Shown: positions 506 to 45,736, numbered from the stretch's first letter. The stretch: DNA of 64,000 bases from Candidatus Bathyarchaeota archaeon (GCA_963707955.1 OY970176.1:1856001-1920000), one strand, 5' to 3'. Notes: a model not told the origin generated them from the letters alone. Numbers and translations are program-made.

Positions 506-569
506 TAGAACACTAGGGCGCGCGCGGAAGACCAGAAGAAGTATCAGAAGAGGCCTCACATAGAAACGG

Positions 570-680
570 TTTATTGATTCAACAGCAGCAGTCTCGCCAC
601 CTGGCGTATGAAGAATGAGGTCCAGACCCAGTTTCGGATCAAGGTGATGTGTCGCATTCATGAAACCAATCTTGTCATTG
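570..680 (-). pseudogene. internal fragment of SDH/S49-family Clp-fold serine protease
   Basis: NDKIGFMNATHHLDPKLGLDLILHTPGGETAAVESI resembles the family motif (GFMNAIHGLD..LDLILHTPGG..A.ESI); no start and no C-terminal half. Confidence 0.65.
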
Positions 681-693
681 TAGCGCGCGCATG

Positions 694-1524
694 CTAAGTT
701 TTCTGGTTCCCCGTCTTGGGGTCTTTCTTGCTTGTGTCTTTGACGATTTCTTTGAAGCCGTACATGCCGATTGGTGGCCATCCTGCTTCTGGCATCGATG
801 ATGGAACGAGCATTATTGTGTTTGTGCTGGATTGCTGTCCAATTTCGTAGAGGATGTTCATCCACCTCAGCCTTAAAGCTTCGTGGCTTGTTTCGTAGAG
901 GTTTGCAGCTTTAATCATCATCTGTGCCGCTTCAAATTCTGCCGTCGCCAATGTAACTCTTGCTCTTCTCTCACGTTCGGCCTGTGCTTGTCTTGACATG
1001 GCATCTTGAAGCACCTGAGGAATGCCGACGTCCCTGATTTCAACCGACGTCACCTTTATTCCCCAAGCCTCTGTCTTTGAATCGATTATTCCTCTAGCGA
1101 TTGACCCGACTTTCTCTCTTTCAGTAAGCACTTCATCAAAGCTTGCCTGCCCGATAACCTCTCTCAGCGTCGTCTGTGCGGCAAAGTCGGTGGCGTCTCT
1201 AAAACTCTCTGCGCCCAACACAACCTTCTGCAGGTCTACAGGTTGGAAGTACATGACGGCGTCCACAACCACAGGCACGTTATCCTTAGTCAGAGTCTGC
1301 TCGGTCTTGAAGGAAACCACCTGAAGCCTGGTTGATATGACGAAGGGCACTCGGCTTATGATTGGTGGCACGTAGATTACTCCCGGGCCTTTGAGTCCTT
1401 TGTATCTGCCCAAAGTGAGTAGTGGAGCCCTTTCCCACTCTTTCAAAACTCTAATGCCGCTCAGAAGAATTATCAGCACTATGAGGAGAACAAAAAGCTC
1501 TATCGCCAAAGTCACTGGATCCAT
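694..1524 (-). CDS. SPFH/band-7 stomatin-like protein
   Basis: N-terminal TM helix, LTKDNVPVVVDAV, AQTTLREVIG, AMSRQAQAERERRA; directly downstream of nfeD. Confidence 0.93.
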   Translation of the reverse strand: MDPVTLAIELFVLLIVLIILLSGIRVLKEWERAPLLTLGRYKGLKGPGVIYVPPIISRVPFVISTRLQVVSFKTEQTLTKDNVPVVVDAVMYFQPVDLQKVVLGAESFRDATDFAAQTTLREVIGQASFDEVLTEREKVGSIARGIIDSKTEAWGIKVTSVEIRDVGIPQVLQDAMSRQAQAERERRARVTLATAEFEAAQMMIKAANLYETSHEALRLRWMNILYEIGQQSSTNTIMLVPSSMPEAGWPPIGMYGFKEIVKDTSKKDPKTGNQKT

Positions 1525-1599
1525 TCAAAACCACCTGATCTGGAGAGAATGTTCTTCACTTATTAATTTTGTCATGCTTAAACGAAGCAGCCTGCAGCC

Positions 1600-2940
1600 C
1601 TATTTCTTGGATTCGTTTGAAGGTTCCACATCAGTTTTCTCGACTATGAGAACTAGATCCTGCAGAGATTTGACCCTTACACACTCGCCCTTCTGAATGT
1701 CACCTGAAGCTGACTTGGCTCTCCACACGAATCCTGCGACTCTCACTTCCCCGTCAGGCTTCAGATCTGTCACCGCCATTCCGGCCTTTCCAATAATCGC
1801 TTCAGGTCCAGTTAGCTTGGTCTTACGTAGTATGGGGCCTATCATCCATCTGAAGTAGAGTCCCGCGACAACCCCGAAGACCACGACCAGAAACAGTTCG
1901 AGCTCTGTCACGTTTGTGATAGGCGACGGCGAATAATTCAATCCCTGCGCCAAGTAATATATTCCAAATGCCCCGACAGCTACACCGGCTATCATGGCGA
2001 AACCGTGTCCAAGCTTGAGTTCGAGCACGATTAGAACTGCTGCAATGGCTAGAATTGCATAGCCAAGAACTGAGGCTCCGATGACTTCTGCGCCTATCAG
2101 CCCCGTGATTATTCCAAAGATCCCCGCTATAGTGAGAATGATCGTCGGATGGTAAATGTCAAGCACGATCGCCACTATTCCCAGCAGAATAAGGATTCCA
2201 TCGAGTGTGGGGTTGCTCAAGGCGCTTATGAACTGATCGTACAAGGATTCGTTGCGCGTGACCTGAGGCGCTCCTGTCAACCCAACATCATTTATTACAT
2301 CATTCAATGAACCTGCAGAACCATCCGCAACGTGGTATGCCACTGCCTCATTCGCCGAGAAAGCCTCATCCTGCTGAACCATATTATATGCAGCCGTGCT
2401 GTTTCGCCCCCATTTTTCGGCGAGGCTGATCATCAAAGAAAGCATTGCAGCCTGCGTATGGTTCTGCTCCAAATCCGTTCCCCCAACAACGATCGGAGTG
2501 CTAGGTCCGATGGCGGAGCCCGTTGCCATGAAAATCTTGTTAGTTGCCATCGCGATGTAGCTTCCAGCGGAGGCTGCTAACCCGTTAGGCACGACGAAAG
2601 TGTAGCTAGGTATGCCAGACTGATTCGCGCGAGTTATCGAGCCTATAATCGAAACCATATCGCTCAACAAACCGCCTGGAGTGTTCATCTGAAATACGAT
2701 CGCAGAAGCATCCTGCTGAATAGCATAACTAACCGCACTGTCAACGAAACCTGAAGAACCAGGATCAACAGGGACATCAAAATTGACTACTACAACTGGG
2801 CCTAATGTTCCCTCAGCATGCCCTTTCATGATTACTCCAAAAAGACAACCTACAACCTCAAGAAAAAGCAGGGCGTAAAACAGGCCGAAGCGCAGACGCG
2901 CCTTCAAGTAAGTGTAACTCCTTTTCCAAGTTTGGAACAA
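1600..2940 (-). CDS. nfeD: NfeD membrane-bound ClpP-class serine protease
   Basis: MNTPGGL, AASAGSYI, multi-TM core, C-terminal OB-fold (TDLKPDGEVRVAG..WRA). Confidence 0.92.
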   Translation of the reverse strand: MFQTWKRSYTYLKARLRFGLFYALLFLEVVGCLFGVIMKGHAEGTLGPVVVVNFDVPVDPGSSGFVDSAVSYAIQQDASAIVFQMNTPGGLLSDMVSIIGSITRANQSGIPSYTFVVPNGLAASAGSYIAMATNKIFMATGSAIGPSTPIVVGGTDLEQNHTQAAMLSLMISLAEKWGRNSTAAYNMVQQDEAFSANEAVAYHVADGSAGSLNDVINDVGLTGAPQVTRNESLYDQFISALSNPTLDGILILLGIVAIVLDIYHPTIILTIAGIFGIITGLIGAEVIGASVLGYAILAIAAVLIVLELKLGHGFAMIAGVAVGAFGIYYLAQGLNYSPSPITNVTELELFLVVVFGVVAGLYFRWMIGPILRKTKLTGPEAIIGKAGMAVTDLKPDGEVRVAGFVWRAKSASGDIQKGECVRVKSLQDLVLIVEKTDVEPSNESKK

Positions 2941-3134
2941 TCCCTTCTAGACAGCAGCAGTGTCCCTGTTCGAAAGCGCAGGCCCAAAAACGCGGAGGCT
3001 ACGTTCGGACCGAGCATATCAAGTCGCCCAATGTTTTCACCCTGCCAAAAGGGTACTGCAGATATAAAGCTTAAGGTGCACGCGCGGTGGTTGGCTGGAG
3101 TAGAGTTTCGCCCAAACCCAAAACGAACTGAATA

Positions 3135-3455
3135 TTACTCTACCTGGAAGACGTTTCCGCATTTTGTGCATTTGATGCTACGTTTCTCGGTTACTTTGAC
3201 GTAGAACAGAAGATAACCACAAGATGGGCACTTGATAGCCTGTCTCTTGTCACTTGCTGGTTCAGTTCTTGCTGCTGGCTCCGTCCTAGCCGCTGGTTCA
3301 GTTCTTGCTGCTGGCTCCGTCCTAGCCGCTGGTTCAGTTCTTGCTGCTGGCTCCGTCCTAGCCGCTGGTTCAGTTCTTGCTGCTGGCTCCGTCCTAGCAC
3401 CTGGATCCGTTCTGGCCTCTGGTTCCCATTTACTCGCTTGAACCTTTCTTGCCAA
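3135..3455 (-). CDS. small protein: TEPAAR tandem repeats plus C-terminal CxxC..CxxC zinc ribbon
   Basis: TTG start after GGGATGAG; in-frame repeats; KCPSCGYLLF...IKCTKCG. Confidence 0.7.
   Translation of the reverse strand: MARKVQASKWEPEARTDPGARTEPAARTEPAARTEPAARTEPAARTEPAARTEPAARTEPAARTEPASDKRQAIKCPSCGYLLFYVKVTEKRSIKCTKCGNVFQVE
3256..3417. repeat. 18-bp tandem repeat organised as a 36-bp A/B dimer x4 plus one degenerate unit
   Basis: GCTGGTTCAGTTCTTGCT alternating with GCTGGCTCCGTCCTAGCC over 3256-3399, then CCTGGATCCGTTCTGGCC. Confidence 0.97.
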
Positions 3456-3539
3456 TTAACTCATCCCGACTATGCGACTTCAAAACATCTGCCGCTTTTA
3501 TGTTTTCCTGATCTTTCAACCTCCGCGCTAGCGCGTTGC
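3451..3539 (-). repeat. 89-bp dispersed repeat, copy 1 (promoter/leader of the zinc-ribbon repeat gene)
   Basis: Reverse complement matches 21042-21130 with 4 mismatches (aligned by eye). Confidence 0.93.
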
Positions 3540-3607
3540 GCGCGCCATTTTTAGCTCCTCCAGCCCCGAGTATTATCTTCCACATACTGGGGTCGAAGTG
3601 TGGCCAA

Positions 3608-6130
3608 CTATGATTCATACCACAATATCTGTCTGGCTTCCAGGGGTATCGCAGCCCCACCAAAATAGGGAATGATGCGTGGCGTATAGTCTTCTGCTGA
3701 CCGACGGGCCGGGATACGGGCACGATAGAGATAGCTATTCGCTGTTCCGGCAGCCTCAGCTACCTCCATGACATGAATTTCGGATTCTCCGTTACCCTGT
3801 GGCTCGGCGAATAGCTGGACCTGCACTGCCTTCGGATCAAGCTTATCAAGATACGCTTCTACCGTCATAATATATTCGTCACCTTCTCTCTGCACACCCA
3901 GCCTTTCGAAGTGTAATTTCTGCCAATGCGTCTCCAGTAACTCTCGCCAGTGGCATAAGCGTACTGACTCATTTGCCCCGTCGGCAGAGCGCTTATGATA
4001 GTTCTTGGCAGCAGTGAGGTATAGTCTATCGACATACTCTCGCAGCATTCGGTTCGTACTGAATTGCGGGGTGAGCTCAGCCATACTCGTCCGCATGCGT
4101 GCTATCCAACCGGTGGGGATGCCTCGGCCATCACGTTCATAGAAGCACGGAATAATCTCCTCCTCGAGGAGACGATAGGTCTCTTCCGCCTCTTGAGCAT
4201 CCCAGTTAAGGTCATCACCATGCTCCTGCCCATCGCCTATAGCCCAGCCAACCTCGGCCCGGTAAGCTTCTGCCCACCACCCATCCCGCTCCGATAAGTT
4301 TAAGCCACCGTTTACCAGAACCTTCATGCCACTAGTACCGCAAGCCTCCCAAGGGCGGCGGGGTGTGTTTATCCAAAGGTCCACGCCTTGTACCAACTGC
4401 TCGGCCAGAGCCATATCGTAGTCAGAGAGGAAGACTACCTTGTCTTGCACATCGGAACGAAGCGAATACTCCCACCAAGCTCGTACCAAGGCTTTGCCTT
4501 CTTCATCGTGAGGGTGGGCTTTACCGGCAATAACGAGTTGAACAGGCCGATGAGGGTTGTTCAGTATTCTGCTTAGCCGATCGGGATCATGGAGCAATAG
4601 ATTTGGTCGTTTGTATGCGGTGAAGCGCCGGGCAAAACCCATTGTGAGAACGCTAGGGTCCAGTAGTTGGTTGGACTGCTTTATGAGTTGCACCGAGGCA
4701 CCTGCTCTCGCTAGCTGACGGCCAAGACGTGCACGTACGTAATGGATCAGTTGCTCTGCTTCTTCCATGCGTAGTTGCCACAACGACTCGTCAGTTATCT
4801 TCTTCAAATCGTCTTTAATCGTATCCATGGTATTTAGCCAACGCTCTTTCCCGCAGGCATTGGTCCAGGTCGTATCGGCCGTTGCAGAGTCCCATGACGG
4901 CATGTGAACACCGTTGGTAACGTGGGTGATTGGTACCTCGCCCTTGGGCCAGCGAGGGAATAATGGTTGGAAAATGCGCCGGTTTACCTCGCCATGAAGA
5001 CGGCTGACACCGTTGACCACTCCTGAACCCCGCATAGCCAGAAAGGCCATGTTGAGTGGTTCCTGTGAGTTGGCAGGATCCTGGCGACCTAACGCTAGAA
5101 GACCGCCCAATCCAATACCCAGTTGATCCGCATAATTTGCCAGATAACGGCTGACCAGTTCTGGTGAGAATCGATCGAAACCCGCCTCAACAGGTGTATG
5201 CGTGGTAAAGATGTTGCCCGCACGAGTTGCGGCCAAAGCCACCTTGAAAGGCTGATGTTCACTCAACATAAAGCTGCGCGCCCGCTCGACCACAGCTAGT
5301 GCCGCATGTCCCTCATTCAGGTGACATACTTCAGGTTGAATACCAATGGCATCAAGCAGTCGCCAGCCTCCGATCCCCAACACAATCTCTTGCTGCAGGC
5401 GCAGTTCCGGTCCTCCACCGTAGAGCTCGCTGGTAATCCCGCGGTCAGGGGGACTGTTGATGGGATCATTACTGTCCAGGAGATACAGCTTCACCCGTCC
5501 CACTATAGCTTTCCAGGCACGCAACCACAAGGCGCCACCGGGAAAATCTATCCTTATCCGGAGCCACTCTCCATTCTGGTCGCGTACTGGCATAACTGGA
5601 AGCTGGCCAGGGTCGTTGTAGGGGTAAAACTCGGTCTGGTCGCCACGGGCATCTACTGTTTGACGGAAATAGCCCTGCTGGTAGAGAAGACCCACTCCAA
5701 CTACTGGAACGCCCAGGTCACTGGCCGCCTTGAGATAATCACCCGCCAGAATCCCGAGACCGCCCGAGTAAATCGGCAGAGCTTCACCAAGCCCATACTC
5801 CATGCAGAAATAGGCTACTTTTAGTGTCGATTGAGAATGAGTCTGTTGAAACCAAGCCTTTTCTTCAATCGCCTCGCGATGTTCTTCCACAAGTTCATCC
5901 ATCAGTCCCCGGAAAGTGAAATCGGTCGCCAGTGCGTTAAGGCGATTCGCTTTAACTGTTTGAAGCAGAAGCCATGGGTTAGAGGTCATACTCCATAATT
6001 CTGGATCAATGTATTTCCATAGCTTGTCAGCGGCGTGATTCCATGACCAGCGAAGATCGAGGGCTAACTCGGCGAGTCCTTCTAGTCCTTCCGGCAGGGC
6101 AGGTAACAGACAATTGCTCGATACAGTCAT
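3608..6130 (-). CDS. glgP: alpha-glucan (glycogen) phosphorylase
   Basis: YSGGLGILAGD, HLNEGH, ARRFTAYKRP, AGKAHP, PLP-lysine motif EACGTSGMK. Confidence 0.96.
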   Translation of the reverse strand: MTVSSNCLLPALPEGLEGLAELALDLRWSWNHAADKLWKYIDPELWSMTSNPWLLLQTVKANRLNALATDFTFRGLMDELVEEHREAIEEKAWFQQTHSQSTLKVAYFCMEYGLGEALPIYSGGLGILAGDYLKAASDLGVPVVGVGLLYQQGYFRQTVDARGDQTEFYPYNDPGQLPVMPVRDQNGEWLRIRIDFPGGALWLRAWKAIVGRVKLYLLDSNDPINSPPDRGITSELYGGGPELRLQQEIVLGIGGWRLLDAIGIQPEVCHLNEGHAALAVVERARSFMLSEHQPFKVALAATRAGNIFTTHTPVEAGFDRFSPELVSRYLANYADQLGIGLGGLLALGRQDPANSQEPLNMAFLAMRGSGVVNGVSRLHGEVNRRIFQPLFPRWPKGEVPITHVTNGVHMPSWDSATADTTWTNACGKERWLNTMDTIKDDLKKITDESLWQLRMEEAEQLIHYVRARLGRQLARAGASVQLIKQSNQLLDPSVLTMGFARRFTAYKRPNLLLHDPDRLSRILNNPHRPVQLVIAGKAHPHDEEGKALVRAWWEYSLRSDVQDKVVFLSDYDMALAEQLVQGVDLWINTPRRPWEACGTSGMKVLVNGGLNLSERDGWWAEAYRAEVGWAIGDGQEHGDDLNWDAQEAEETYRLLEEEIIPCFYERDGRGIPTGWIARMRTSMAELTPQFSTNRMLREYVDRLYLTAAKNYHKRSADGANESVRLCHWRELLETHWQKLHFERLGVQREGDEYIMTVEAYLDKLDPKAVQVQLFAEPQGNGESEIHVMEVAEAAGTANSYLYRARIPARRSAEDYTPRIIPYFGGAAIPLEARQILWYES

Positions 6131-6153
6131 GACAGTCTCCTTACTATTTATCC

Positions 6154-7061
6154 TTACGCGCGCGCGAACTCCGCCATCAAGATCTTGATCCGTTCAGCCA
6201 TTTCTAAAGCCTTTTTGAAGGGTCGTTGCCAAAGATTTCTTCCAAATACCAGACCAGTTGCGCCTGCTTCTAAAGAGATTCTGACCTTTTCTAGGAGTTC
6301 GCCGTCTCCCATTTCTTCTCCCCCAGATATTAGCACCATCGTTTTTCCTGCGGACTTTATTACTCTTTCAAGGGCTTCCTTTGCGTTAAGCTGGAGCGTG
6401 TCGTACGGCTTAGGATACAGTCGACTTCTCTCTTTGTCATATTCGGGAATGTTTATTTTAACCATGTCAGCGCCCAGTTCGTTGGCCACTCGTGCTGCAT
6501 AGTCAACAGCGTAAACGCTATCCCTACCGCCCTTAGCTTCAATCGCCTCGCCTCTTGGATAGGCCCAAACAATAAGGGGCACGCCAAACCTTTGACTATC
6601 CTCTCTAATTTTTGCGAATTGAATGAAATCTTTATCTTGGGCCGGTGAGCCCACAAACAAGGTATATCCAACGGCGTCAGCGCCCAGTCGGACTGCATCC
6701 TCTACTGAGGCGGTTTGAGGTGAAAAGGCATGAGTATCTGGAGGGATTGATGTTTTTCCATTCAGTTTAAGAATCAAAGGGATTTCGCCAGTGAATTCCT
6801 TCATGTATTTTCAGCCAGCCCAATGTGCAAGACTATGGCTGAAAAACTTCCCTCTTTTGCCAATCTCAACTGGTAGGCAGGATCAACGCTTTCTGGATTT
6901 GCAAAAAAATCTCTCGGGCCATGCTCCAATCCATGATCAATTGGCAGAATAAGCGCCATTCCGTTACCCACTCCATGCTCATACAAGATTCGATAAAGCC
7001 TAGTCCTCTTACCAAGATTAAGGTTCAAATCTTTAAGCAAAGGTCTCTTAACTTGAACCAT
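6154..7061 (-). pseudogene. class I (DhnA-type) fructose-bisphosphate aldolase, frameshifted near 6805
   Basis: Two ORFs (6801-7061 with [11 protein letters not shown]; 6154-6804 with WAYPRG, LGADMVK, GLVFGRN); one extra A in GAA AAT AC restores the frame. Confidence 0.85.
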
Positions 7062-7470
7062 TGTCCAAACCGGCTATATTGTGTAGGTCTTCGCATTATA
7101 AGTTTGACGTCCTAGCTTCACAAATCGAACTCATGCGAAGCACATGCTCTTAAAGAAACCTCAATATCAAAGCCGATTTTTGGATTCAGAACAGAGGAGA
7201 CACTCTCAGATTGGTTAGCATGCCAGCGCGTGCGTTGAATAGGGTGGAAAAAGCCAAGCCATAACATTACTCGCAAGATGAGCAGAGACTAAACACAAAA
7301 ATGTAATTTAGCAACAGACTGGCGCGCAATAAGTAGTGTGAAATCAGACTTTGAGAGTGGAAACAATTGGCTCTAATTCTGAGAAACTAATAAATTGGTC
7401 TCTGCCGTACCTGAATGTTAAGGCGTCAGATTTGGTTACTGAAAGGGGAATACATTTTCACGGATGCCAG

Positions 7471-8715
7471 ATGGCAACCACTAATTCCGTGAAACAGCAC
7501 AAACTGAGGAAACTCATGGCGTGGTTGTCAGACAAAGAGGGAAGGGGAATGGAGTTCATCTCGCTCTACATACCTCGGGAGAAATCAATAGATGAGATAG
7601 TCGCAATGCTCAAGGAGGAGTCTGATTCTGTTGTCATGAAATCTGAGAGCGTTAGGGATCGCCTTCAAGACGCTCTCAAGATTGTAATTCAGCGCTTGAA
7701 GCTGCAGAAGGAAATTCCAGAGAATGGGCTCGCAATATTTGCCGGAACCTACGCCGCGAACGATCCGAAAAGCGAAGTTTTGAACGTTGAAGAGCTCGTC
7801 CCACCAGAGCCGATTACCGCCTGTCTTTACGAGGTTGACGACCATTTTCGGTTAGAGCCGCTGAGGGAAATGCTGAGAGACCAAAGAGTTGTGGGGCTTG
7901 TCGCCATAGATTCAAAGGAGGCTAGCTTTGGGATACTCGACGGTGAACGCCTCGAATTAATTGAAAATATCACGTCGGGGATTCCAGGAAAGTCTGGAAA
8001 GGGCGGGATGAGCCAAAGGAGGTACGAAAGAGAACGAGATATGGAACTCACACAATATTTCCACAGGGTTGCGGAGCACGCAGCAAAGGCATTTCTCGAA
8101 AACCATAAAGTCACGGTGTTGATAGTTGGAGGACCTGGTCCAACGAAAGAGGATTTCTTAAAGGGTGATTACCTTCATTATGAGCTAAAGAATGCGCTTC
8201 TTTCCATAGTTGATACGCAATCCGCCGGCAGAGAAGGGGTGAGAGAGGTGCTTGGCAAATCATCTGAGGCACTGAAGAATATGTGTGCGCCAGAGCAGAA
8301 GAGGACCGTGCAGCGCCTTCTGGCAGATGTGGGCAAGCAAGACGGTTTGGCTATTTGCGGCCTAGATTCAGTGTTGAACGCGCTTAAGAATGGTGAAGTA
8401 GAAGTTGTACTAGTGACAGATAGTACAGATATGATTGAAATTGTTGTAATGTGCAAAAGATGCGAACTGTCAAGGGCGAAGATAGTGGATAAGGAGAAGA
8501 AGGTTCAAACTGTACAGGAAATGATATCGCGCCCATGCGAGAAGTGCAACGCGGTTGAATTCGAGGTGGAGGAGAAGGACATAATAGATGTCTTAGAGGA
8601 TGTGGCTTCACAGACAGACGCAAGGGTTGAGGTGATATCTTCAGAGTCGGAAGAAAAAGCAAAGCTCACAGCTTTGGGAGGCTTTGCCGCTCTCTTGAGA
8701 TACAGACCTAGATAA
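7471..8715 (+). CDS. aRF1/eRF1 peptide-chain release factor paralog with degenerate motifs
   Basis: GRGMEFISLYIP, PENGLAIF, PPEPI, GGPGPTK, Zn-ribbon minidomain, GGFAALLRY; GGQ->GGM, NIKS->VMKS. Confidence 0.92.
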   Translation: MATTNSVKQHKLRKLMAWLSDKEGRGMEFISLYIPREKSIDEIVAMLKEESDSVVMKSESVRDRLQDALKIVIQRLKLQKEIPENGLAIFAGTYAANDPKSEVLNVEELVPPEPITACLYEVDDHFRLEPLREMLRDQRVVGLVAIDSKEASFGILDGERLELIENITSGIPGKSGKGGMSQRRYERERDMELTQYFHRVAEHAAKAFLENHKVTVLIVGGPGPTKEDFLKGDYLHYELKNALLSIVDTQSAGREGVREVLGKSSEALKNMCAPEQKRTVQRLLADVGKQDGLAICGLDSVLNALKNGEVEVVLVTDSTDMIEIVVMCKRCELSRAKIVDKEKKVQTVQEMISRPCEKCNAVEFEVEEKDIIDVLEDVASQTDARVEVISSESEEKAKLTALGGFAALLRYRPR

Positions 8716-9073
8716 AGTGGAATGAGAATCGCGAGAACCTTTTCCGGGCGTTTTATCTGGGAACATTTAACTCCGAAACGGGGTCAGAGTTTTGAGATCG
8801 ATCGATTGGAATACGAGTTTATCCGGGAGTCTGGAGAGCTCCTCGCAGGCCTTTGGTGTATGGGGCACTTGATTTAAACAGGTGAAGCGTGTTAGAAGGC
8901 GACGATGAACTCGACGAATGACGATCCAGACGAAAAGAACGAAGCGCAAGAGGAATCTGAGGCGATAGAGCAGGAGCATGAGGTGGACGCCGCTGGAGAT
9001 GTCAAGCCAGTGGAGCGCGCGCGTCAAAAGGATAAAAGTAACAAAATCACATAAATCTTGATGAAGCTGGATC

Positions 9074-10339
9074 ATGTCTAAGATAATGAAGATCAGGTCA
9101 AGGGAAATCCTTGATTCGAGGGGCAACCCAACTGTCGAAGCTGACGTGTTCACAAACGGAGGGTTGTCAAGGGTTTCTGTTCCTTCTGGTGCAAGCACAG
9201 GCGAGTACGAAGCTTTTGAGCTCAGGGATGGCGGGAGGCGTTATTTGGGGAAGGGAGTTCTGAAAGCCGTTAGTAATGTTAACAATGTTATAGCAAAGAA
9301 GATTGTCGGACGGGATTGTACAAAACAGAAAGAGGCAGACGAGTTGATGATAGATTTGGATGGAACTCCTAACAAGTCCAACTTAGGGGCTAATGCTATT
9401 CTCGCGGTCAGCATGGCAATATGCAAAGCGGGAGCTTTGGAGTCGAACTTGTCTCTTTATGAATATATTGCTGAGCTTGTGGATTCAAGAGGTGTGACTT
9501 TGCCTATTCCTCAGATGAACGTGATTAACGGTGGGATGCACGCTGGTATGAAAAATGATTTTCAAGAACACATGATAGTCCCGTTCGGAGCTAAAACTTT
9601 CTCTGACGCTCTAAGAATGTGCTCGGAAACTTATCACACTCTAAAGAAAAACCTGAAAGAAAAGTTTGGAAACTCCGCGATACAAGTTGGTGATGAAGGA
9701 GACTTCGTTCCTCCCTTGAAAAGCGTCGATGAGAGGCTCAAATTCATGTCAGAAGCGGTGGAAGAACTTGGCTACACGAAAGAATTCGCTCTAGCAATAG
9801 ACGCTGCAGCATCTGAATTCTATGGTGAGGGGCGTTATAACATCATGGGAAAAGAATACTCTTCTGCAGAATTAACGGATTTCTATTCTGAGCTGTGTGG
9901 AAAATTCAGGATAGTGTCAGTCGAGGATGGCTTGAGCGAAGACGATTGGGATGGCTGGATTAAGTTGAAATCCGAACTGGGGAAAAAAATTCAGATTGTC
10001 GGAGACGATCTTCTGGTTACGAATGTTGAGAGAATTAGAAAAGCAATTAAATTAGATGCTTGCAATGCTTTGCTACTGAAACTCAATCAGATCGGAACCG
10101 TTACCGAAGCCCTAGATGCTTTTAAATCAGCCAGAAAAGCCGGGTGGAACGTTATCGTTTCTCACAGATCAGGAAGCACTGAGGAAACTTTCTTTGCGGA
10201 TTTGGTTGTTGGCTTAGATGCGGGGCAATTCAAGTATGGCGCTCCCGCAAGAAGTGAGAGGACTTGTAACTATAACCAACTGCTCAGGATTGAAGAAGAA
10301 TTAGAGGGAAAAGCCGAGTATTCAAAGATTTTCGGGTAA
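9074..10339 (+). CDS. eno: enolase
   Basis: ILDSRGNPTVE, VPSGASTG, GDDL, KLNQIG, SHRSG, RSER. Confidence 0.96.
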   Translation: MSKIMKIRSREILDSRGNPTVEADVFTNGGLSRVSVPSGASTGEYEAFELRDGGRRYLGKGVLKAVSNVNNVIAKKIVGRDCTKQKEADELMIDLDGTPNKSNLGANAILAVSMAICKAGALESNLSLYEYIAELVDSRGVTLPIPQMNVINGGMHAGMKNDFQEHMIVPFGAKTFSDALRMCSETYHTLKKNLKEKFGNSAIQVGDEGDFVPPLKSVDERLKFMSEAVEELGYTKEFALAIDAAASEFYGEGRYNIMGKEYSSAELTDFYSELCGKFRIVSVEDGLSEDDWDGWIKLKSELGKKIQIVGDDLLVTNVERIRKAIKLDACNALLLKLNQIGTVTEALDAFKSARKAGWNVIVSHRSGSTEETFFADLVVGLDAGQFKYGAPARSERTCNYNQLLRIEEELEGKAEYSKIFG

Positions 10340-10364
10340 ACCAGATTTTGGAGATGACTTTTGA

Positions 10365-11684
10365 GTGAAAGACACAGAATTTTCTTTTGGAGACGCAATG
10401 ATCCCTCAACAGAGGATCCTCGAAACGGCAAAAATGTTAAGACCTGAGATTAGAAATATGGCGAATGCTATTTCTGGAGGCTACGAAGGTGATATGGCTT
10501 CGCTATATCTGCCTGATGATAGACTCATGTTAGGCAAAGTCAGACAAGTCATAGGCAAGAATCTGCAACTGAAGCCGGTTTACCTCGTTGTCGTGGGCAT
10601 TGGCGGCAGCAATCTAGGGACGATAGCTGTTCAGGAAGCTGTTCTTGGAAAACTGTACAATCAATTGACGGCGTCTACAAAGGTATTGTATGCCGACACA
10701 GTTGATTCAGACGGCATTAACAACATAATCACGCTGGCCAAGCCTGTATTAGAAAGAGGAGGTAACATCGCACTGAATGTGATAAGCAAGTCGGGAACTA
10801 CGACGGAAACGATAGCTAACGCCGAGGTGCTCATAGATTTATTACGACGGCACAAGAAAAATTACAAAAATTGTATTAATGTTACTTCAGATAAAGATTC
10901 AGAACTGTGGAACATTGCTGTCAGAGAAGGATTCAATGTTCTAGAAATACCGAAGAAAGTTGGCGGAAGGTATTCTGTCTTTTCGTCTGTAGGTCTGTTT
11001 CCTCTCGGATTACTGGGAATAAATATTGAACAATTATTGGATGGAGCAAGATCCATCAGAGATGCCTGTATTAATATGAATGTCGAAAAGAATCCCGCAG
11101 CGATAAGTGCAATTGTACAATATCTGCATTACAAGAGCGGAAAGAACATATATGACTTGTTTCTGTTCGCGAATGATTTGGAGTCTTTAGGCAAATGGTA
11201 TAGGCAATTAATGGCTGAAAGCCTAGGCAAAGAGTTTAACAAGAAGGGGGAAAGAGTGAACATTGGCATGACTCCAACTGTCTCAATAGGTTCGACGGAT
11301 TTGCATTCAACGGCGCAACTCTATCTTGGAGGTCCATACGATAAATTCACAACGTTCGTGAGGATCAAAAACAGTCGTTCATGTTTAAAAGTGCCAAGTG
11401 TTGAAGGCTACTCGGAGCTAGTTTCTGAGATTCATGGTAAGAGTCTGATGGATATAATGGATGCGACATTGGAAGGAACAAAGGCGGCTTTTAGGAGCGG
11501 CAAGAGACCATTCATCGAGATAACTCTGCCTGACAAATCGGAGCACTCCGTAGGCCAGTTGTTACAGTTCAAGATGATAGAAACCATGTACTTAGGACGA
11601 TTGTTAGATGTAAATCCTTTTGACCAGCCAAACGTTGAAAGCTACAAAAGGGAAACCCGAAAAATACTGGCAGAACAAAACTGA
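10365..11684 (+). CDS. pgi: glucose-6-phosphate isomerase (PGI superfamily)
   Basis: GIGGSNLG, SKSGTTTET, VGGRYSV, QLMAESLGK, DLHS, FDQPNVE. Confidence 0.94.
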   Translation: MKDTEFSFGDAMIPQQRILETAKMLRPEIRNMANAISGGYEGDMASLYLPDDRLMLGKVRQVIGKNLQLKPVYLVVVGIGGSNLGTIAVQEAVLGKLYNQLTASTKVLYADTVDSDGINNIITLAKPVLERGGNIALNVISKSGTTTETIANAEVLIDLLRRHKKNYKNCINVTSDKDSELWNIAVREGFNVLEIPKKVGGRYSVFSSVGLFPLGLLGINIEQLLDGARSIRDACINMNVEKNPAAISAIVQYLHYKSGKNIYDLFLFANDLESLGKWYRQLMAESLGKEFNKKGERVNIGMTPTVSIGSTDLHSTAQLYLGGPYDKFTTFVRIKNSRSCLKVPSVEGYSELVSEIHGKSLMDIMDATLEGTKAAFRSGKRPFIEITLPDKSEHSVGQLLQFKMIETMYLGRLLDVNPFDQPNVESYKRETRKILAEQN

Positions 11685-11749
11685 TGTCAGTAAACTCAAA
11701 GTTGGGTACTTCGCTCGGGCGAAATTTCACGAGGGAGAGTGAGGAAAAA

Positions 11750-12643
11750 TTATGTCGCTAATACTCTTGCCAGATTCAGGAAACTCAAATCCAAAGGCTT
11801 TTCTGTCTTGCATGATTCTTCGAGCCCTATGCTCTTTATTTTGCCATTCCGCAACACAACCGCCCTGCTTCCTCGTCCCTTAGATAACAGTTTAACCGCT
11901 TCATCTGCGAATAGACTGGCCAAAAGTCTGCTTCTCGCCGATGGATTGCCGCCTCTCTGAGTGTAGCCCAAAACGCTAAGCCTCACTTCTGCTCCCGTAG
12001 CTTTCTCAAGTTCACTCGCAAGCTGACGGTTGTCTCCGATTCCTTCCGCTGCAACAATTATGCCTGACCTTTTTCCTCTTTCTTTCGTTTCTCTAATAGT
12101 TCTGAAGATTTTTTCATTTTCGTATTTAACCCCCATGACTTCAACTATGAAGATTCTCTCGATGGAGACTGCTGTGTCTCGAATCTTATCGATTTCGGTT
12201 ACTGCCGTATTTACTGCTGTGTCAAATCCTATAGTTTCGTCCGTTCCGAAAACGTCGTTGTCAATTGACGCTGGAACCCCTACGATTGACGTGCCGGTTT
12301 CTTTGCTTAGTTCTAGGGCTCCTTGGAAGGAGCCGTTACCACCAATAACAATAAGGCCATCGACATTGTTTAATGCAAGGGTTTCGGCAGCTTTCTTGAT
12401 TGCTTCATTCTTTTTGAATTCTGGGCATCTTGACGTATGAAGGATGGTTCCGCCCAAGTGTAATATTCCACCAACGGAGCGGGGGGTCAACCGTCTAGAC
12501 GAGTTTGTTAGCAAGCCTTCCCAACCCCTTTCAAAGCCTATAACTTCGAAGTTTTTTGAGTGGGCAATTCGGACAACGCCTCGAATAGCTGCGTTCATGC
12601 CTGGCGCGTCTCCGCCACTTGTAACCACAGCTATAATCTTCAA
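11750..12643 (-). pseudogene. pfkA: 6-phosphofructokinase (PfkA family) with in-frame internal deletion
   Basis: TSGGDAPGMNAA, IDND, LGYTQRGG present; VEVMG runs straight into VKYE, so the MGR arginine and the following helix/strand are missing. Confidence 0.75.
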
Positions 12644-33554: not shown

Positions 33555-33748
33555 TATGTCACAACCGACTTTGCATAAAGGAAGCCGTACACGTTCTTAT
33601 ACTTTTTCGCGATCCCGAGTGCGTTATGTTTCATCCGAATGGTCAACGTAGCGCGCACGACAAATACCACCAAACAAATATTTGTCACACCTTGCATATT
33701 TACTCGTTGAAAATAAGTGAGTCAAAATGGGCACGATAGAGGGTCAGA

Positions 33749-43298: not shown

Positions 43299-43376
43299 TA
43301 GTGTCTATTCACCTTTCAAAGATAGCGTTCATTTGTCGCACTGGATATATAAGGTATGCTGCACTCTAGTCTGCTT

Positions 43377-44417
43377 TCACTGGCTCTTTCCAGCGCTCTT
43401 AAGCCTAATCCGGTAGTAAGCTAACGGGTGGCGTACTCTTCTGCACACCTCGTCTGGGTCTGTACATATGCCATGCGTTTGCAGAGTGTCACATCTCGGT
43501 GGGATGTACCGCGTTCTCGAGCCTGTTTCGCCGGCGATGTGTTCCACTTGGTAACGGGTCATTTTTTCGTTGAAGTCCGAAATGTTCTTGAAGAGGTCAA
43601 TGACGTTTTGCGAGGGCATTCCGATGTTTATGAGGAACGAGGTCAAGGCGAACCTTCCCACGTGTGAGATGTGGCGTCCAGATGAGAACGCCAAGTACAG
43701 CGCTGCTATGCATGGTGGGAATGCTGTTTGAACCATAACCTTCGGAAATTCTTCTATCTCGGCCTTGCCTATCTTCTCAGCTGAGAGCTTCATTATTCTT
43801 TCTGCCACGTTCATTATTTTCTTCGGAAACTCAGGCAGTTCCTTTACTTCTAGTCTTTCTTCTATATGCCTGCGCGCTTCTTCGCTCAACAATCTAGATG
43901 TTTCGTTTCCAGATAAGAAAACGGTTCCGTTGGACAAGACCCGGTTGACGAGCTTCCACTTCTTGTCGCGCAGATGAGTTGTGCTTCTCAGATAATCTTG
44001 AAAGTTTACTGCGAATTCGAGCGGGGACACGTTTCGTTGGCTGAGGGCCAGTTTCCATCCTAAGTCTGTTGCGATTTCGAGAATTTGATCTCTGTTTTCT
44101 TCTTTGAGGTCTTCGTATATCCGCTTTGCTTCGGCGAGAGCGTACCTTTTCTTGATGAAGGAATTTCCAGTTGCAACCGTCAGCATTATTGCAGCTGGAA
44201 AGGACAAAATTTCGATTTCTTCGTTGCGTGTCTTTCTGCCAACAAGCGTGTACAAAATGGCGTCCGCAACTCTCTCTTCGGCACGTTCGAGGACTCTTTC
44301 AAGTTCAGGGTTTGCTAGGTCCTCAATCTTCACGTTGAGTTTCTTTACATATTCCGTGGTTTCTTTGAGAAAAGGATATTTTGCCAGGTCGCTTTTTGCG
44401 AATCTTCCCGTGGTCAT
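43377..44417 (-). CDS. priL: DNA primase large subunit
   Basis: KYPF, FPPCI, H.GRF, YQVEHIAG, Fe-S cysteines, HPLAYY. Confidence 0.94.
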   Translation of the reverse strand: MTTGRFAKSDLAKYPFLKETTEYVKKLNVKIEDLANPELERVLERAEERVADAILYTLVGRKTRNEEIEILSFPAAIMLTVATGNSFIKKRYALAEAKRIYEDLKEENRDQILEIATDLGWKLALSQRNVSPLEFAVNFQDYLRSTTHLRDKKWKLVNRVLSNGTVFLSGNETSRLLSEEARRHIEERLEVKELPEFPKKIMNVAERIMKLSAEKIGKAEIEEFPKVMVQTAFPPCIAALYLAFSSGRHISHVGRFALTSFLINIGMPSQNVIDLFKNISDFNEKMTRYQVEHIAGETGSRTRYIPPRCDTLQTHGICTDPDEVCRRVRHPLAYYRIRLKSAGKSQ

Positions 44418-44436
44418 CTGCTCTTCGTTTTTCGTC

Positions 44437-45201
44437 TCATTCTGTCTCTATTCTCGGCGCTAGGAAGAACGTTAGTTTTCCTTCTTTTGCCTGCTGGAAA
44501 TCCAGCCTTATGGGCATGTCCGAAGAGAATTCGAGTGTAGCTATGTCCGACGTTGCAGATGCCGCCTTTATTATCTCTGTCAGGTAACTGAGGCTGAAGG
44601 TTGCTTTCTGCGCTTCCTTAGCTTCTAGGTCCAGCAGCATGTCGCTTCCTTTTTGCAGAGTGATAGTTGCACCCATGAGGTCGCCCGACGCGTTGAAAAC
44701 CAGTTTTTCAGGGTCTGCTTCAATCTTAACATGGTCGCTTACGAGTTGAGCGTCCTCTATCGCTTGGCTCAAGCCTTCAGTCGTAGCCTTTGCTTTCACG
44801 TTGAAGGTGATCTTCGGCGTTGGCACTTCTTCTTCTGAGGCTTCAAGCGTGGGCATCGTAAAGTTTCGCGTGTATTTTCCCGCCATTGCGATTTGTAGAC
44901 GCCCCGTTTTTTCGTCAAGAGAAAGCTCCACTGTTTCGCCCTTGCCTGCTCTTTTGAGAAGTTTCAGCAGTTCTGTTATGTTGATGCACATTTTTGTCGG
45001 CTCAGTACACACGTATTCCTCGAAGACGGTTTTGGGCCATTCGAAGTCGATCATGGCGACTCGTGAAGGATCCATCGCTCTAAGCTTCAAGCCGTCCTGG
45101 TCGAGCTTGAACGTGGCTTCGTCCACGAGGATGGAAATAGACGTGATCATGTCCCTCAGAAGTCTGGCATCAGCTACTTTGAGTTTGAACACCGAGATCA
45201 C
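44437..45201 (-). CDS. pcn: DNA sliding clamp PCNA
   Basis: LRAMDPSRVAMI, FSLSYL, FFLAPRIE. Confidence 0.96.
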   Translation of the reverse strand: MISVFKLKVADARLLRDMITSISILVDEATFKLDQDGLKLRAMDPSRVAMIDFEWPKTVFEEYVCTEPTKMCINITELLKLLKRAGKGETVELSLDEKTGRLQIAMAGKYTRNFTMPTLEASEEEVPTPKITFNVKAKATTEGLSQAIEDAQLVSDHVKIEADPEKLVFNASGDLMGATITLQKGSDMLLDLEAKEAQKATFSLSYLTEIIKAASATSDIATLEFSSDMPIRLDFQQAKEGKLTFFLAPRIETE

Positions 45202-45355
45202 CTTTGTATCGGATATGCTCGGTGGCTAATAAAAGACTTTACACACTTAAGCATGACGCTGAGCGAAAGAATCATGCGCTAGTTGCCTCATTACTAGACT
45301 CGGTTGTTGTGCCTGCAATGTTGTAGAGGATTTATTCCGAACCGCTACTTCTTTA

Positions 45356-45736
45356 TCAGACTACAGCGCGCGCGATGGGTTTCAGCAAAAGAGTTGCGTT
45401 TCTAGGTCTTGCTTGTTTTCTTTGTGTTTTCCTGTATTCTGACTATGTCAGCTAAATGTGGAGTTGATACTTCAAACAATATCGACTCTTTTTTTCCTAT
45501 TATGGTGTGAATAGTCTTTGGAATAGCGTTATGTCCTCGTCTTCTCTTAGCGTGACTGTTTTGTCAGTCAATATGATGTCTACCAGGCCTTTGAAACAGT
45601 AAGTTGTCTCTTTCTTATCCTTATGATAATGTTGAAAGGTGCTCTTGTTTTCTCTAATTATCAGGATTTTTCCACCATACTCTGCTTCTTCAGCTATCCA
45701 AAGCTCCTTGCCCCAATCTTTCAAGATCTGCCTCAA
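45356..45736 (-). pseudogene. cupin (mannose-6-P-isomerase-like) protein, frameshifted
   Basis: WGKELW..EYGGKIL, QHYH..K.ET; second frame continues PKTIHT..LFEVSTPHLADIVRI. Confidence 0.75.

What the first reader, a model, noticed from the sequence alone, without database searches (positions are those of the whole stretch)
518..45373. Dispersed (TA)GCGCGCGC(TA) palindrome marks module junctions: candidate undescribed gene-capture or shuffling signal
Seen: by eye I count 12 loci with the 8-mer GCGCGCGC, at 518, 683, 3538, 6158, 9015, 14689, 14803, 18943, 20932, 26553, 26589 and 45366. Eleven lie in the accessory first 27 kb. All are between genes or at extreme 3' ends, and I saw none inside a gene body. 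Assuming about 45% GC, well under one copy is expected in 64 kb. Flanks converge on TAGCGCGCGCTA (perfect at 14801; TAG...CT at 20930 and 26587). Shorter versions occupy most remaining junctions: 7322, 13251, 13285, 17188, 18814, 23808, 24051, 25461, 29474, 33649, 46029. Copies tend to sit just after stop codons or just upstream of BRE/TATA boxes, so they delimit promoter+gene units. Inference: these are recombination scars or sites of an integron-like module-assembly mechanism. Alternatives are a chromatin/TF site or Z-DNA-prone (CG)n tracts that make junctions fragile. No recombinase is visible in this window.
Basis: partly seen in the sequence, partly recalled or inferred. Interest (0 to 1): 0.8.

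Follow-up and report, generated by a model that had tools for sequence, protein, structure and literature searches.

The report
GC palindrome marking DNA rearrangement joints
In this uncultured archaeon the short palindrome GCGCGCGC sits almost only between genes and marks the points where DNA has been inserted, deleted or copied, which looks like the signature of an undescribed cut-and-rejoin process.

Summary
All 12 GCGCGCGC copies are at the stated places (0.74 expected). Genome-wide there are 419 such tracts, sharply limited to 8-10 nt, and 374 lie wholly between my crude gene calls.

The motif marks joints of the flexible genome:
- Repeats within the genome end at it: 53 of 374 sites against about 15 in controls.
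- Against a close relative (93% identity), 20 of 54 structural breakpoints carry it, against about 6 expected.
- In 8 of 20 simple indels the short allele is essentially the motif.
- The window's first 27 kb, holding 11 of the 12 copies, is strain-specific DNA.

The integron-like reading fails: none of 9 long alleles is flanked at both ends, and no recombinase follows the motif's distribution. In one case whose direction is known, the motif replaces about 52 bp of coding sequence.

My best reading, at about 0.5, is that a break-and-rejoin process writes the tract at the joint, after which it decays neutrally. The enzyme is unknown. Ku/LigD, DNA methylases, Cas1, reverse transcriptase and transposases were tested and do not explain it.

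The motif is patchy across Bathyarchaeia families. Earlier notes of this scan reported the same on other Bathyarchaeia genomes. My paper searches found no description of it.

The parts
518..525 (.). GCGCGCGC tract in strain-specific DNA
   Evidence: lies in G000-only DNA relative to G001
683..690 (.). GCGCGCGC tract 3 nt beyond the stop of the Band_7 gene 694-1524(-)
3538..3545 (.). GCGCGCGC tract downstream of the glycogen phosphorylase gene 3608-6130(-)
6158..6165 (.). GCGCGCGC tract overlapping the last codons of the DeoC-family ORF 6154-6804(-)
9015..9022 (.). GCGCGCGC tract between the eRF1 and enolase genes
14689..14696 (.). GCGCGCGC tract in the divergent spacer between the glycosyltransferase and MDH/LDH genes
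   Evidence: In relatives G001, G007 and G008 the glycosyltransferase homologue lies next to a pyruvate kinase homologue instead
14801..14812 (.). Perfect 12-nt palindrome TAGCGCGCGCTA
18943..18950 (.). GCGCGCGC tract between the pyruvate kinase and TrkA-N genes
20932..20939 (.). GCGCGCGC tract at the 3' end of ORF 20283-20942(+), or inside the alternative ORF 20429-20998(-)
26553..26596 (.). Pair of GCGCGCGC tracts 36 nt apart, about 400 bp inside the right edge of the strain-specific island
   Evidence: Colinearity with G001 starts at window 26986
1..26985 (.). Window part of a 35.8-kb strain-specific island (G000 1847200-1882985) holding 11 of the 12 tracts
   Evidence: 35,786 bp in G000 against 1,425 bp in G001; only scattered hits of 66-87% identity in relatives
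29474..29483 (.). TAGCGCGCTA at the left joint of a 1.6-kb segment (29474-31080) present only in G000
   Evidence: at the same spot G007 has a perfect GCGCGCGC followed by other DNA, and G001 has GCGTGCGG
33651..33656 (.). GCGCGC standing where G001 has 532 extra bp
45366..45373 (.). GCGCGCGC tract exactly at the joint where G001 carries 2,184 extra bp and G007 an unrelated 2.1 kb

Best explanation
SHOWN. Alternating-GC tracts of 8-10 nt (core GCGCGCGC, usually preceded by A and followed by T) are the junction sequence of structural change in this Bathyarchaeia genome. They stand at the edges of inserted, deleted, duplicated and truncated DNA segments. They are concentrated in strain-specific DNA and almost never lie inside stretches of conserved homology.

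INFERRED MECHANISM. A break-and-rejoin process writes the tract at the joint. A DNA break is trimmed, or captures a stray piece of DNA. A stereotyped self-complementary (GC)4-5 filler is then added or used to hold the two ends together, and the ends are sealed.

After that the tract has no function and decays by point mutation. It survives only where an insertion of 8-10 nt is harmless, that is, between genes and in pseudogenes. Existing tracts seem to be break-prone themselves, so events recur at the same spot and arrays of gene-tract-gene build up.

The enzyme is unknown. Its determinant is patchily distributed among Bathyarchaeia families.
For: 1. The tract is discrete. Tract lengths in intergenic DNA are 6:262, 7:129, 8:244, 9:113, 10:46, 11:2, 12:0, while coding DNA decays monotonically. 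No wider conserved context exists.

2. Repeats within the genome end at the motif. 53 of 374 intergenic sites have an HSP end within 12 bp (same-spacer shuffles 15.6 +/- 3.7, maximum 25 of 200). Only 12 are spanned (controls 40.1 +/- 4.3). 51 HSP ends fall at offsets -2..+11, against about 1 per bp before the tract and 4 in the 49 bp beyond it.

3. 8 of 8 young dispersed duplicates (>=95% identity) have a tract at one or both edges.

4. Protein-fragment homology stops at the tract at 15 of 418 sites (controls 1-6). It crosses at 1 site (controls 15-23).

5. A case with known direction: a copy of a Cas1 pseudogene has AGCGCGCGCG in place of about 52 bp of in-frame coding sequence, with homology on both sides. 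A 101-aa truncated copy of a flippase gene ends exactly at a tract that the donor lacks.

6. Close relative G001 (92.9% identity over 217 kb): 20 of 54 breakpoints have a tract of 8 nt or more within 10 bp (about 10.6% expected). 72 of 80 G000 tracts in the compared region lie in G000-only DNA or at its edges.

7. Of 20 simple indels, the short allele holds a tract of 8 nt or more in 8, and of 6 nt or more in 9. The matching long allele has a tract at both ends in 0 of those 9 and at one end in 2 of 9. This fits deletion plus scar, not target duplication.

8. Gene pairs adjacent in both G000 and G004 carry the motif in 2 of 140 cases in G000 and 0 of 140 in G004. For spacers of 100 bp or more the figure is 2 of 40, against a genome baseline of 292 of 1195.

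9. Contigs of related populations join at the tracts: 5 of 15 listed joints. They also carry GCGCGCG(C) as the letters between joined parts where G000 has other DNA.

10. Neutral decay. Internal one-mismatch variants number about 65 per position against a background that I estimated by hand at about 12 (not a computed control), with transitions in excess. That gives a ratio of one-off to perfect copies near 1, as expected for perfect-born, neutrally decaying copies. Inside shared blocks 5 of 8 tracts are conserved, against 4.4 expected from 92.9% identity.
Against: - No enzyme was found. The Ku/LigD end-joining operon is present in G000 but is not associated with the motif across 251 Bathyarchaeia genomes. 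Motif-rich families f26 and f35 have Ku in 1 of 10 and 1 of 5 genomes. Ku-rich families f24 and f34 lack the motif.
- Stereotyped fillers of fixed sequence are not known, to my recollection, from any end-joining system.
- Some cases fit a pre-existing target better. At window 29474 three strains all have a tract with different DNA beside it. A 3-kb G000 insertion relative to L067 is flanked by tracts at both ends. A 585-bp segment that is 100% identical in two places is bounded by tracts at both ends in both copies.
- 28 to 34 of 54 breakpoints against G001 show no tract.
- The direction of the 9 motif-bearing indels was not established with an outgroup.
- Gene calls are my own crude ones (80% coverage), and BLAST ends are approximate.
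Confidence: 0.5

Rival explanations
1. The tract is a pre-existing target or hot spot. A sequence-specific nuclease, integrase or recombinase cuts at GCGCGCGC, and arbitrary DNA is inserted or exchanged there (integron-like, att-like or target-site duplication). The tract is then the cause of the joints, not their product.
For: - Recurrent events at one site in three strains.
- Segments flanked by tracts at both ends: the G000 3-kb insertion relative to L067, the 78-aa gene module and the 585-bp identical duplicate.
- The G001 2.18-kb segment has partial tracts at both joints where G000 has one perfect tract.
- An array of 24 tracts in 18 kb lies beside two tyrosine recombinase genes.
Against: - 0 of 9 long alleles have a tract at both ends and 7 of 9 have none.
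- In the Cas1 and flippase cases the tract appears where the source sequence has none.
- This model does not explain how a 100-fold intergenic excess arises.
- That integrase family is not co-distributed with the motif (f26 1 of 10).
- No intact Cas1. No Y1 transposase, DDE_3 transposase or reverse transcriptase.
- The MTase-Mrr nuclease fusions are not co-distributed.
Confidence: 0.2
2. The tracts are abundant for another reason. They merely serve as strong 8-10 bp microhomology for illegitimate recombination between copies, so joints fall on them secondarily.
For: The tract is self-complementary and GC-only, so any two copies can pair in either orientation. Several joints have a tract in both partners: 20 of 79 HSP-end events.
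Against: - 59 of 79 HSP-end events have the tract in one partner only.
- Deletion between two copies predicts long alleles flanked at both ends; 0 of 9 are.
- The model does not create new copies, yet the Cas1 case shows one created.
Confidence: 0.08
3. The tract is a functional protein-binding site, such as a transcription factor, insulator, terminator or chromatin site, that punctuates transcription units. Joints coincide because only whole units survive rearrangement.
For: It is strictly intergenic, palindromic as homodimer sites are, and lies between promoter-plus-gene units.
Against: - Equal numbers in all four spacer types, with the highest density per kb in convergent spacers, and no fixed distance to starts or stops.
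- Rare in conserved spacers: 2 of 40 against 24%.
- Four times denser per intergenic kb in strain-specific DNA.
- Conserved no better than neutral: 5 of 8 against 4.4 expected.
- One-off variants are as common as perfect copies.
- Homology stops at the exact edge of the tract.
Confidence: 0.07
4. It is a HIP1-like highly iterated palindrome, kept up by a DNA-methylation or repair bias linked to a cognate methyltransferase.
For: It is an 8-nt GC-rich palindrome over-represented roughly 18-fold genome-wide. That ratio rests on my hand estimate of about 26 expected copies from base composition, not on a computed control; the observed count is. G000 has several N4/N6 methyltransferase genes.
Against: - HIP1 is abundant in coding DNA too (recalled; the abstract of PMC5861425, seen only in the search listing, speaks of more than one motif per gene). 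Here only 32 of 419 tracts are in coding DNA.
- No C5 methyltransferase in G000, and only in 2 of 10 genus members.
- The two strong MTase genes are not co-distributed with the motif.
- This model does not explain the joints.
Confidence: 0.03
5. It is an assembly or binning artefact: false joins at GC-rich palindromes.
For: The genomes compared are metagenome-assembled.
Against: - The tract is abundant in all 10 other genus genomes and in several other families from other assemblies, and in contigs of unrelated runs.
- 8-10 nt is far below assembler word sizes (general knowledge).
- G000 is one 2.35-Mb contig.
Confidence: 0.01

Closest known systems
Filler DNA and footprints at end-joining or transposon-excision junctions (recalled general knowledge)
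   Same: A few extra bases stand at the joint of a deletion or insertion. They occur with loss of flanking DNA and with capture of stray fragments. Palindromic footprints are typical of some excisions.
   Different: Known fillers vary in sequence or derive from the flanks or the element's ends. Here the same (GC)4-5 appears at unrelated joints. No transposon with such ends, no IS630-type or Y1 transposase, was found. Ku/LigD does not track the motif.
Integron attC sites and gene cassettes
   Same: Palindromic sites separate single-gene modules in arrays. Module content differs between strains. Tyrosine recombinase genes lie near one array.
   Different: The site is 8-10 bp rather than an imperfect palindrome of about 60-140 bp (the size is recalled). 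Genes point both ways and include fragments. Long alleles are not flanked on both sides (0 of 9). The integrase is not co-distributed.
REP/BIME palindromic units of bacteria (PMC2884548, passages read; PMC2817692, listing only)
   Same: Short intergenic palindromes in hundreds of copies, over-represented among strain-variable intergenic loci. Palindromic units account for 12% of variable loci in E. coli (PMC2884548, Table 3).
   Different: REPs are 30-37 nt imperfect palindromes mobilised by RAYT (Y1) transposases. Here there are only 8-10 nt and no Y1 transposase. The tract also sits at the exact edge of unrelated segments.
HIP1 (GCGATCGC) of cyanobacteria (PMC5861425 and PMC4390886, abstracts in the search listing only)
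   Same: A lineage-specific, hyper-abundant 8-nt GC-rich palindrome of unknown function.
   Different: HIP1 is frequent within genes and is linked to orphan methyltransferases. This tract is excluded from genes, is tied to joints, and has no cognate methylase found.
GC clusters of yeast mitochondrial DNA (recalled, no call)
   Same: GC-rich palindromic elements scattered in AT-richer spacers, associated with recombination and deletion endpoints, with A/T-rich target flanks.
   Different: Those are elements of about 30-50 nt forming families with internal structure. Here there is only an 8-10 nt alternating tract in an archaeal chromosome.
Z-DNA-forming / non-B fragile alternating purine-pyrimidine tracts (recalled; also named in earlier scan note e1-5163934)
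   Same: Alternating CG sequence. Such tracts provoke breaks and deletions in bacteria and mammalian cells.
   Different: The tracts studied are much longer. Fragility explains recurrence at a tract, but not the appearance of a new perfect tract at a joint or the sharp limit at 10 nt.

Membership tests
Integron (IntI + attC cassette array) | A tyrosine recombinase of a dedicated family is present wherever the sites are | tested here: not met
   G000 has 9 Phage_integrase hits, two beside the 856-874 kb array. Homologues of that one occur in 82 of 251 class genomes with no relation to motif richness: f26 1 of 10, f7 9 of 12.
Integron (IntI + attC cassette array) | The recombination site is an extended imperfect palindrome with conserved boxes | tested here: not met
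   Only 8-10 nt are conserved. The flank logo is flat beyond +/-2, and flank pairs are independent.
Integron (IntI + attC cassette array) | An inserted cassette is bounded by a site on both sides, and the empty site has one | tested here: not met
   0 of 9 long alleles have alternating GC of 6 nt or more at both ends; 2 of 9 have it at one end. Individual cases with both ends do exist.
REP/BIME with RAYT | A Y1 (IS200-like) transposase is present in the genome | tested here: not met
   PF01797: 0 matches in G000.
REP/BIME with RAYT | An imperfect palindrome of 20-40 nt able to form a hairpin | tested here: not met
   A perfect palindrome of 8-10 nt without a loop; no wider conserved context.
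HIP1-type highly iterated palindrome | Hyper-abundant in coding as well as non-coding DNA | tested here: not met
   32 of 419 tracts are wholly in called genes, which cover 80% of the genome.
HIP1-type highly iterated palindrome | A cognate (orphan) methyltransferase is co-distributed with the motif | tested here: not met
   No PF00145 in G000, and only in 2 of 10 genus genomes. The MTase-Mrr fusion occurs in 0 of 10 f26 and 0 of 5 f35 genomes. Other N4/N6 methyltransferases of G000 were not profiled.
Ku/LigD non-homologous end joining as the source of the tract | Ku and LigD present in motif-rich genomes and absent from motif-poor ones | tested here: not met
   The operon is present in G000 and in most of the genus. 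At class level Ku occurs in 70 of 251 genomes with no association. By my own tally from the per-genome tables, using a threshold of 10 or more copies that I set by hand, about 6 of 23 motif-rich genomes have Ku.
Transposon excision footprint (TA + terminal bases, Tc1/mariner/IS630 type) | A transposon family with matching termini and its transposase in the genome | tested here: not met
   No DDE_3. No multi-copy transposase family in all-against-all blastp. The ends of the long alleles share no termini.
Casposon / Cas1-mediated integration | An intact Cas1 integrase | tested here: not met
   G000 has only four Cas1 fragments or pseudogenes, two of them with internal stop codons.
Z-DNA / non-B fragile tract | An alternating purine-pyrimidine (CG)n tract that adopts Z-form and provokes breaks | not testable with these tools
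   The sequence criterion is met. Structure formation and breakage at 8-10 nt cannot be computed here.
Transcription-factor or terminator site | Fixed position relative to transcription units and conservation between relatives | tested here: not met
   No preferred distance to starts or stops, and all spacer types carry it equally. It is depleted in conserved spacers. Conservation is neutral, 5 of 8.

The most novel reading that the evidence does not exclude
Some Bathyarchaeia possess an undescribed DNA break-joining or gene-shuffling machinery that writes a fixed self-complementary (GC)4-5 'adapter' at every joint it makes. The genome would then carry a readable, neutrally decaying record of each insertion, deletion and duplication. 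The determinant is itself patchily, probably horizontally, distributed among families.
Probability: 0.4. Interest if true: 0.9.

Novelty: categorically new. Interest (0 to 1): 0.82.

Why it matters
If the tract is written at joints, it is a natural molecular tag of structural mutation. Insertions, deletions and gene-fragment captures could then be counted and roughly dated in an uncultured archaeal lineage from sequence alone, because the tracts decay at about the neutral rate.

It also points to an unknown enzymatic activity. Candidates are stereotyped template-independent or self-templated synthesis of an alternating GC oligomer, or a nuclease or ligase with that specificity. Such an activity would interest DNA-repair biology and could serve as a tool.

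Even under the rival reading (target site), it would be the shortest known site organising gene-cassette exchange, and the first such system in archaea.

In practice, the tract predicts the boundaries of flexible DNA in Bathyarchaeia genomes. Density is 0.33 per kb in strain-specific DNA against 0.05 per kb in shared DNA.

Tried and rejected
- C5 methyltransferase link: no PF00145 in G000.
- Ku/LigD as determinant: looked good within the genus but failed at class level.
- Casposase/Cas1: only fragments present.
- MTase-Mrr_cat fusion proteins as the motif nuclease: sporadic, and not found in f26 or f35.
- Reverse transcriptase: none.
- Y1 and IS630-type transposases: none.
- The tyrosine recombinase next to the densest array: not co-distributed.
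- MITE or larger element around the motif: the flank logo is flat. Similarity between flanks turned out to be homology that ends at the motif.
- Microsatellite slippage: rejected by the sharp cut-off at 10 nt.
- 'Palindrome by construction' (left and right flank bases correlated): an apparent z of 8 came from leaving out the 9-nt tracts. Within the 8-nt tracts, A..T pairs number 114 against 116.4 expected.
- The first blastx control was flawed, because queries cut at the pseudo-site force truncation. It was redone properly.
- A possible TAATCT microhomology at the flippase joint was judged chance.
- Polarising the window's indels with G007 failed. G007 carries a third, unrelated content at 45366, and the identities suggest mosaic relationships.
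- Parts of L041 without contig cover in the laid runs are not interpreted.
- Paper searches for the motif in archaea returned nothing relevant.

Full report
**1. The observation**

The window holds exactly 12 GCGCGCGC at the stated coordinates. Dinucleotide-preserving shuffles expect 0.74, and none of 100 reached 12. The flanks are as described.

Ten sites lie between ORFs. Site 6158 overlaps the last codons of a DeoC-family ORF. Site 20932 lies at the end of one ORF or inside an overlapping alternative one.

Of the 11 'shorter versions', 8 hold GCGCGC. The 6-mer is also found inside nine long ORFs, so only the tracts of 8 nt or more are specific.

**2. It is a genome-wide, discrete motif**

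The window lies in a single 2,346,764-bp contig of 47.9% GC. The genome has 464 overlapping GCGCGCGC, which make 419 maximal tracts of length 8 (231), 9 (130), 10 (56) and 11 (2), and none longer. Other 8-mers of four G and four C have a median of 14 copies.

With my own crude gene caller (2,306 genes, 80% coverage), 374 of the 419 tracts are wholly intergenic, 13 partly and 32 in coding DNA.

In intergenic DNA the length spectrum of alternating G/C peaks at 8 and stops at 10 (262, 129, 244, 113, 46, 2, 0 for lengths 6-12). In coding DNA it decays monotonically. This is a discrete element, not a microsatellite.

The base before the core is A in 72% of tracts and the base after it is T in 70%. 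Beyond +/-2 the logo is flat. The two flank bases are independent of each other.

The tract occurs equally in all four kinds of spacer (97, 97, 91, 89) and is densest per kb in convergent ones. It shows no preferred distance to start or stop codons. That argues against a promoter or terminator element.

**3. Homology stops at the tract**

In a self-comparison of the genome, 53 of 374 intergenic tracts have a repeat boundary within 12 bp. Random positions in the same spacers give 15.6 +/- 3.7 (maximum 25 of 200). Only 12 tracts are spanned by a repeat, against 40.1 +/- 4.3.

Repeat ends pile up at the tract itself: 51 at offsets -2..+11. About one per bp falls before the tract, and only 4 in the 49 bp beyond it.

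In 59 of 79 such events only one of the two copies has the tract. All 8 young dispersed duplicates (95% identity or more) have a tract at one or both edges. The ninth young repeat is an ordinary 5,984-bp tandem duplication without a tract.

The duplicated pieces are ordinary cellular genes such as GNAT, TBP, Alba, a small AsnC-type protein and glycosyltransferases. They are not transposases.

At the protein level, fragments homologous to the interior of another G000 protein end within 12 nt of a tract at 15 of 418 sites (controls 4, 4, 6, 1, 2). They cross a tract at 1 site (controls 16, 20, 17, 23, 15). A first version of this control was flawed.

A region at 856-874 kb reads gene-tract-gene-tract, with 24 tracts in 18 kb. 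It includes fragments of Cas1 and EF-1A genes.

**4. Comparison with relatives**

The tract is abundant in all 10 other genomes of the genus (7-92 copies of AGCGCGCGCT) and rare in most neighbouring genera.

A distant congener, G004, has a median protein identity of 68% to G000. None of 13 tract-bearing spacers in 400 kb of it has conserved gene adjacency with G000, against 135 of 345 spacers without a tract. Conversely, 140 gene pairs are adjacent in both genomes. They carry the tract in 0 cases in G004 and 2 in G000. For G000 spacers of 100 bp or more the figure is 2 of 40, against a genome baseline of 292 of 1195. The two exceptions are spacers that have grown from about 100 bp to 460 and 1,070 bp.

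Two genomes, G001 and G007, proved to be close relatives. They are colinear with window 27-64 kb at 85-97% identity (G001) and 84-94% (G007). The first 27 kb has only scattered hits of 66-87% identity.

All three structural differences between G000 and G001 that I inspected in detail in the shared part of the window fall on a tract:
- At 45366-45373, G001 has 2,184 extra bp, with AGCGCGC and AGCGGCCGC at its two joints and an internal CGCGCGCGC. G007 has an unrelated 2.1 kb there.
- At 29474-29483, G000 has 1.6 extra kb behind TAGCGCGCTA. G007 has a perfect GCGCGCGC followed by different DNA. G001 has GCGTGCGG.
- At 33651-33656, G001 has 532 extra bp where G000 has GCGCGC.

Other gaps between the aligned blocks, such as the one between window 36396 and 42579, were not examined in detail.

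Over the whole of G001 contig 1 (392 kb; 217 kb aligned at 92.9% identity) there are 54 breakpoints. Of these, 20 have a tract of 8 nt or more within 10 bp of at least one of the four ends. The control rate for single intergenic ends is 2.75%, which gives about 10.6% per event. Of the 80 G000 tracts in the compared region, 59 lie in G000-only DNA, 13 at block edges and 8 inside shared blocks.

Density is 0.334 per kb in G000-only DNA and 0.051 per kb in shared DNA. Per intergenic kb it is 1.37 against 0.35.

Contigs of related populations from other metagenomes were laid on the dense array. In 5 of 15 listed joints the joint falls inside a G000 tract. Several joints carry GCGCGCG(C) as the letters between the two sides where G000 has other sequence. 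These are contigs aligned at 88% or more, so they may come from other species or paralogues, and 50 further joints were not shown.

**5. Scar or site?**

Three observations favour a tract that is written at the joint.

(a) A copy of a Cas1 pseudogene is homologous to its source on both sides of the tract, but has AGCGCGCGCG where the source has about 52 bp of in-frame Cas1 coding sequence. The direction of change is therefore known.

(b) Truncated gene copies end at a tract that the full-length donor lacks, as in the flippase case.

(c) There are 20 simple indels between G000 and G001. In 8 the short allele holds a tract of 8 nt or more, and in 9 a tract of 6 nt or more. The matching long allele has alternating GC at both ends in 0 of those 9, and at one end in 2 of 9. 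Insertion into a target with duplication, or deletion between two copies, would leave both ends flanked. Deletion with a filler would not.

The tracts also behave as neutral DNA. One-mismatch variants at internal positions number about 65 per position, against a background that I estimated by hand at about 12 (not a computed control). Transitions exceed transversions. The resulting ratio of one-off to perfect copies is near 1, as a birth-and-decay process predicts (8/7). Inside shared blocks 5 of 8 tracts are conserved, where 0.929^8 predicts 4.4.

Other observations favour a role for existing tracts. Events recur at one tract in three strains. A 3-kb insertion in G000 relative to locus L067 is flanked by tracts on both sides, with a CGCGCG at the empty site. 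A 585-bp identical duplicate is bounded by tracts in both copies.

I read this as scars that are themselves break-prone, but a site-specific system cannot be excluded.

**6. The search for the enzyme, all negative**

- G000 has a complete bacterial-type end-joining operon: LigD primase-polymerase, Ku, ligase fused to a phosphoesterase, and DUF72. It is shared by most of the genus.
- In a sample of 251 Bathyarchaeia genomes the motif is abundant in several separate families: f35 5 of 5, f26 9 of 10, parts of f1, f36, f27 and f29.
- Ku is common in families without the motif (f24, f34) and nearly absent from f26 and f35. Ku/LigD is therefore not the determinant.
- No C5 methyltransferase.
- Only Cas1 fragments.
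- No reverse transcriptase, and no Y1 or IS630-type transposase.
- Two methyltransferase-Mrr nuclease fusions and the tyrosine recombinase beside the densest array are not co-distributed with the motif.

**7. What is known**

Full-text searches for the motif with archaea or Bathyarchaeia terms returned nothing relevant. The nearest described things are:
- REP/BIME units. In PMC2884548, of which I read passages, they make up 12% of variable loci in E. coli.
- HIP1 of cyanobacteria (abstracts seen in the search listing only).
- Integron attC sites, yeast mitochondrial GC clusters, non-B fragile tracts and junction fillers or footprints (all four recalled).

Each fails at least one defining feature; see the membership table.

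Earlier notes of this scan on other Bathyarchaeia genomes (e1-2318562, e1-5163934) describe the same kind of tract at variable-DNA joints. I read them after reaching my reading. They are AI notes, not independent proof, but they show that the phenomenon is not peculiar to this genome.

**8. Verdict**

The integron analogy is not.

The most likely mechanism is a break-and-rejoin process that leaves a stereotyped (GC)4-5 at the joint (confidence about 0.5). A target-site system is the main rival (0.2).

Main weaknesses:
- No enzyme was found.
- Direction is known for only a few events.
- The gene calls are crude.
- The comparisons are BLAST-based and cover about 0.8 Mb of relatives.

Noticed in passing
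G000:C1:123069-123278, 532695-532912, 626569-626778 and about 20 more (outside the window): A dispersed intergenic repeat family of about 210 bp with some 23 copies. It is not associated with the GC tract (only 1 of the 40 listed segments has a tract within 30 bp). It may relate to the modular intergenic repeat of soil Bathyarchaeia in earlier scan note e1-5086393.
   Followed up: no
L066:9178-13005 (G000:C1:957178-961005): A complete bacterial-type NHEJ operon in an archaeon: LigD primase-polymerase, Ku, ATP-dependent ligase fused to the LigD 3'-phosphoesterase, and DUF72. Ku is found in 70 of 251 sampled Bathyarchaeia genomes.
   Followed up: yes
G000:C1:957247-957985: The LigD primase-polymerase match is split over two reading frames near residue 214. 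G004 shows a similar split. This is either a real frameshift or a long-read assembly error.
   Followed up: no
G000:C1:2258379-2259146, 862528-862974, 227778-228074, 2026633-2026785; also L041 region and 806801-806866: Cas1 survives only as scattered fragments and pseudogenes, several bounded by GC tracts. One 66-bp piece lies exactly between two tracts. Most genus members also have only fragments.
   Followed up: partly
G000:C1:2096997-2108976: A tandem duplication of 5,984 bp at 99.95% identity, including a methylmalonyl-CoA mutase gene, with no GC tract at its edges. A second, ordinary duplication mechanism therefore operates too.
   Followed up: no
L080:1099-2472(-) and L081:1435-2613(+): Two paralogous N4/N6 DNA methyltransferases fused to a C-terminal Mrr-type restriction nuclease domain. 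The first lies next to an IS240-like DDE transposase gene (L080:2878-3867).
   Followed up: partly
window 7351-18640: The strain-specific island carries what looks like a second set of central-metabolism genes (eRF1, enolase, PGI, PFK, MDH/LDH, pyruvate kinase). The pyruvate kinase has a paralogue of 60% identity or more at G000 115240-116649. Relatives have only homologues of 66-78% identity, located elsewhere.
   Followed up: partly
G000:C1:2012439-2015975 and 1928969-1946227 (outside the window): Insertions of 3.5 kb and 17 kb relative to G001 whose two ends overlap by 17 nt (direct repeats; the first looks like a tRNA 3' end). These are classical site-specific integrations without GC tracts.
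   Followed up: no
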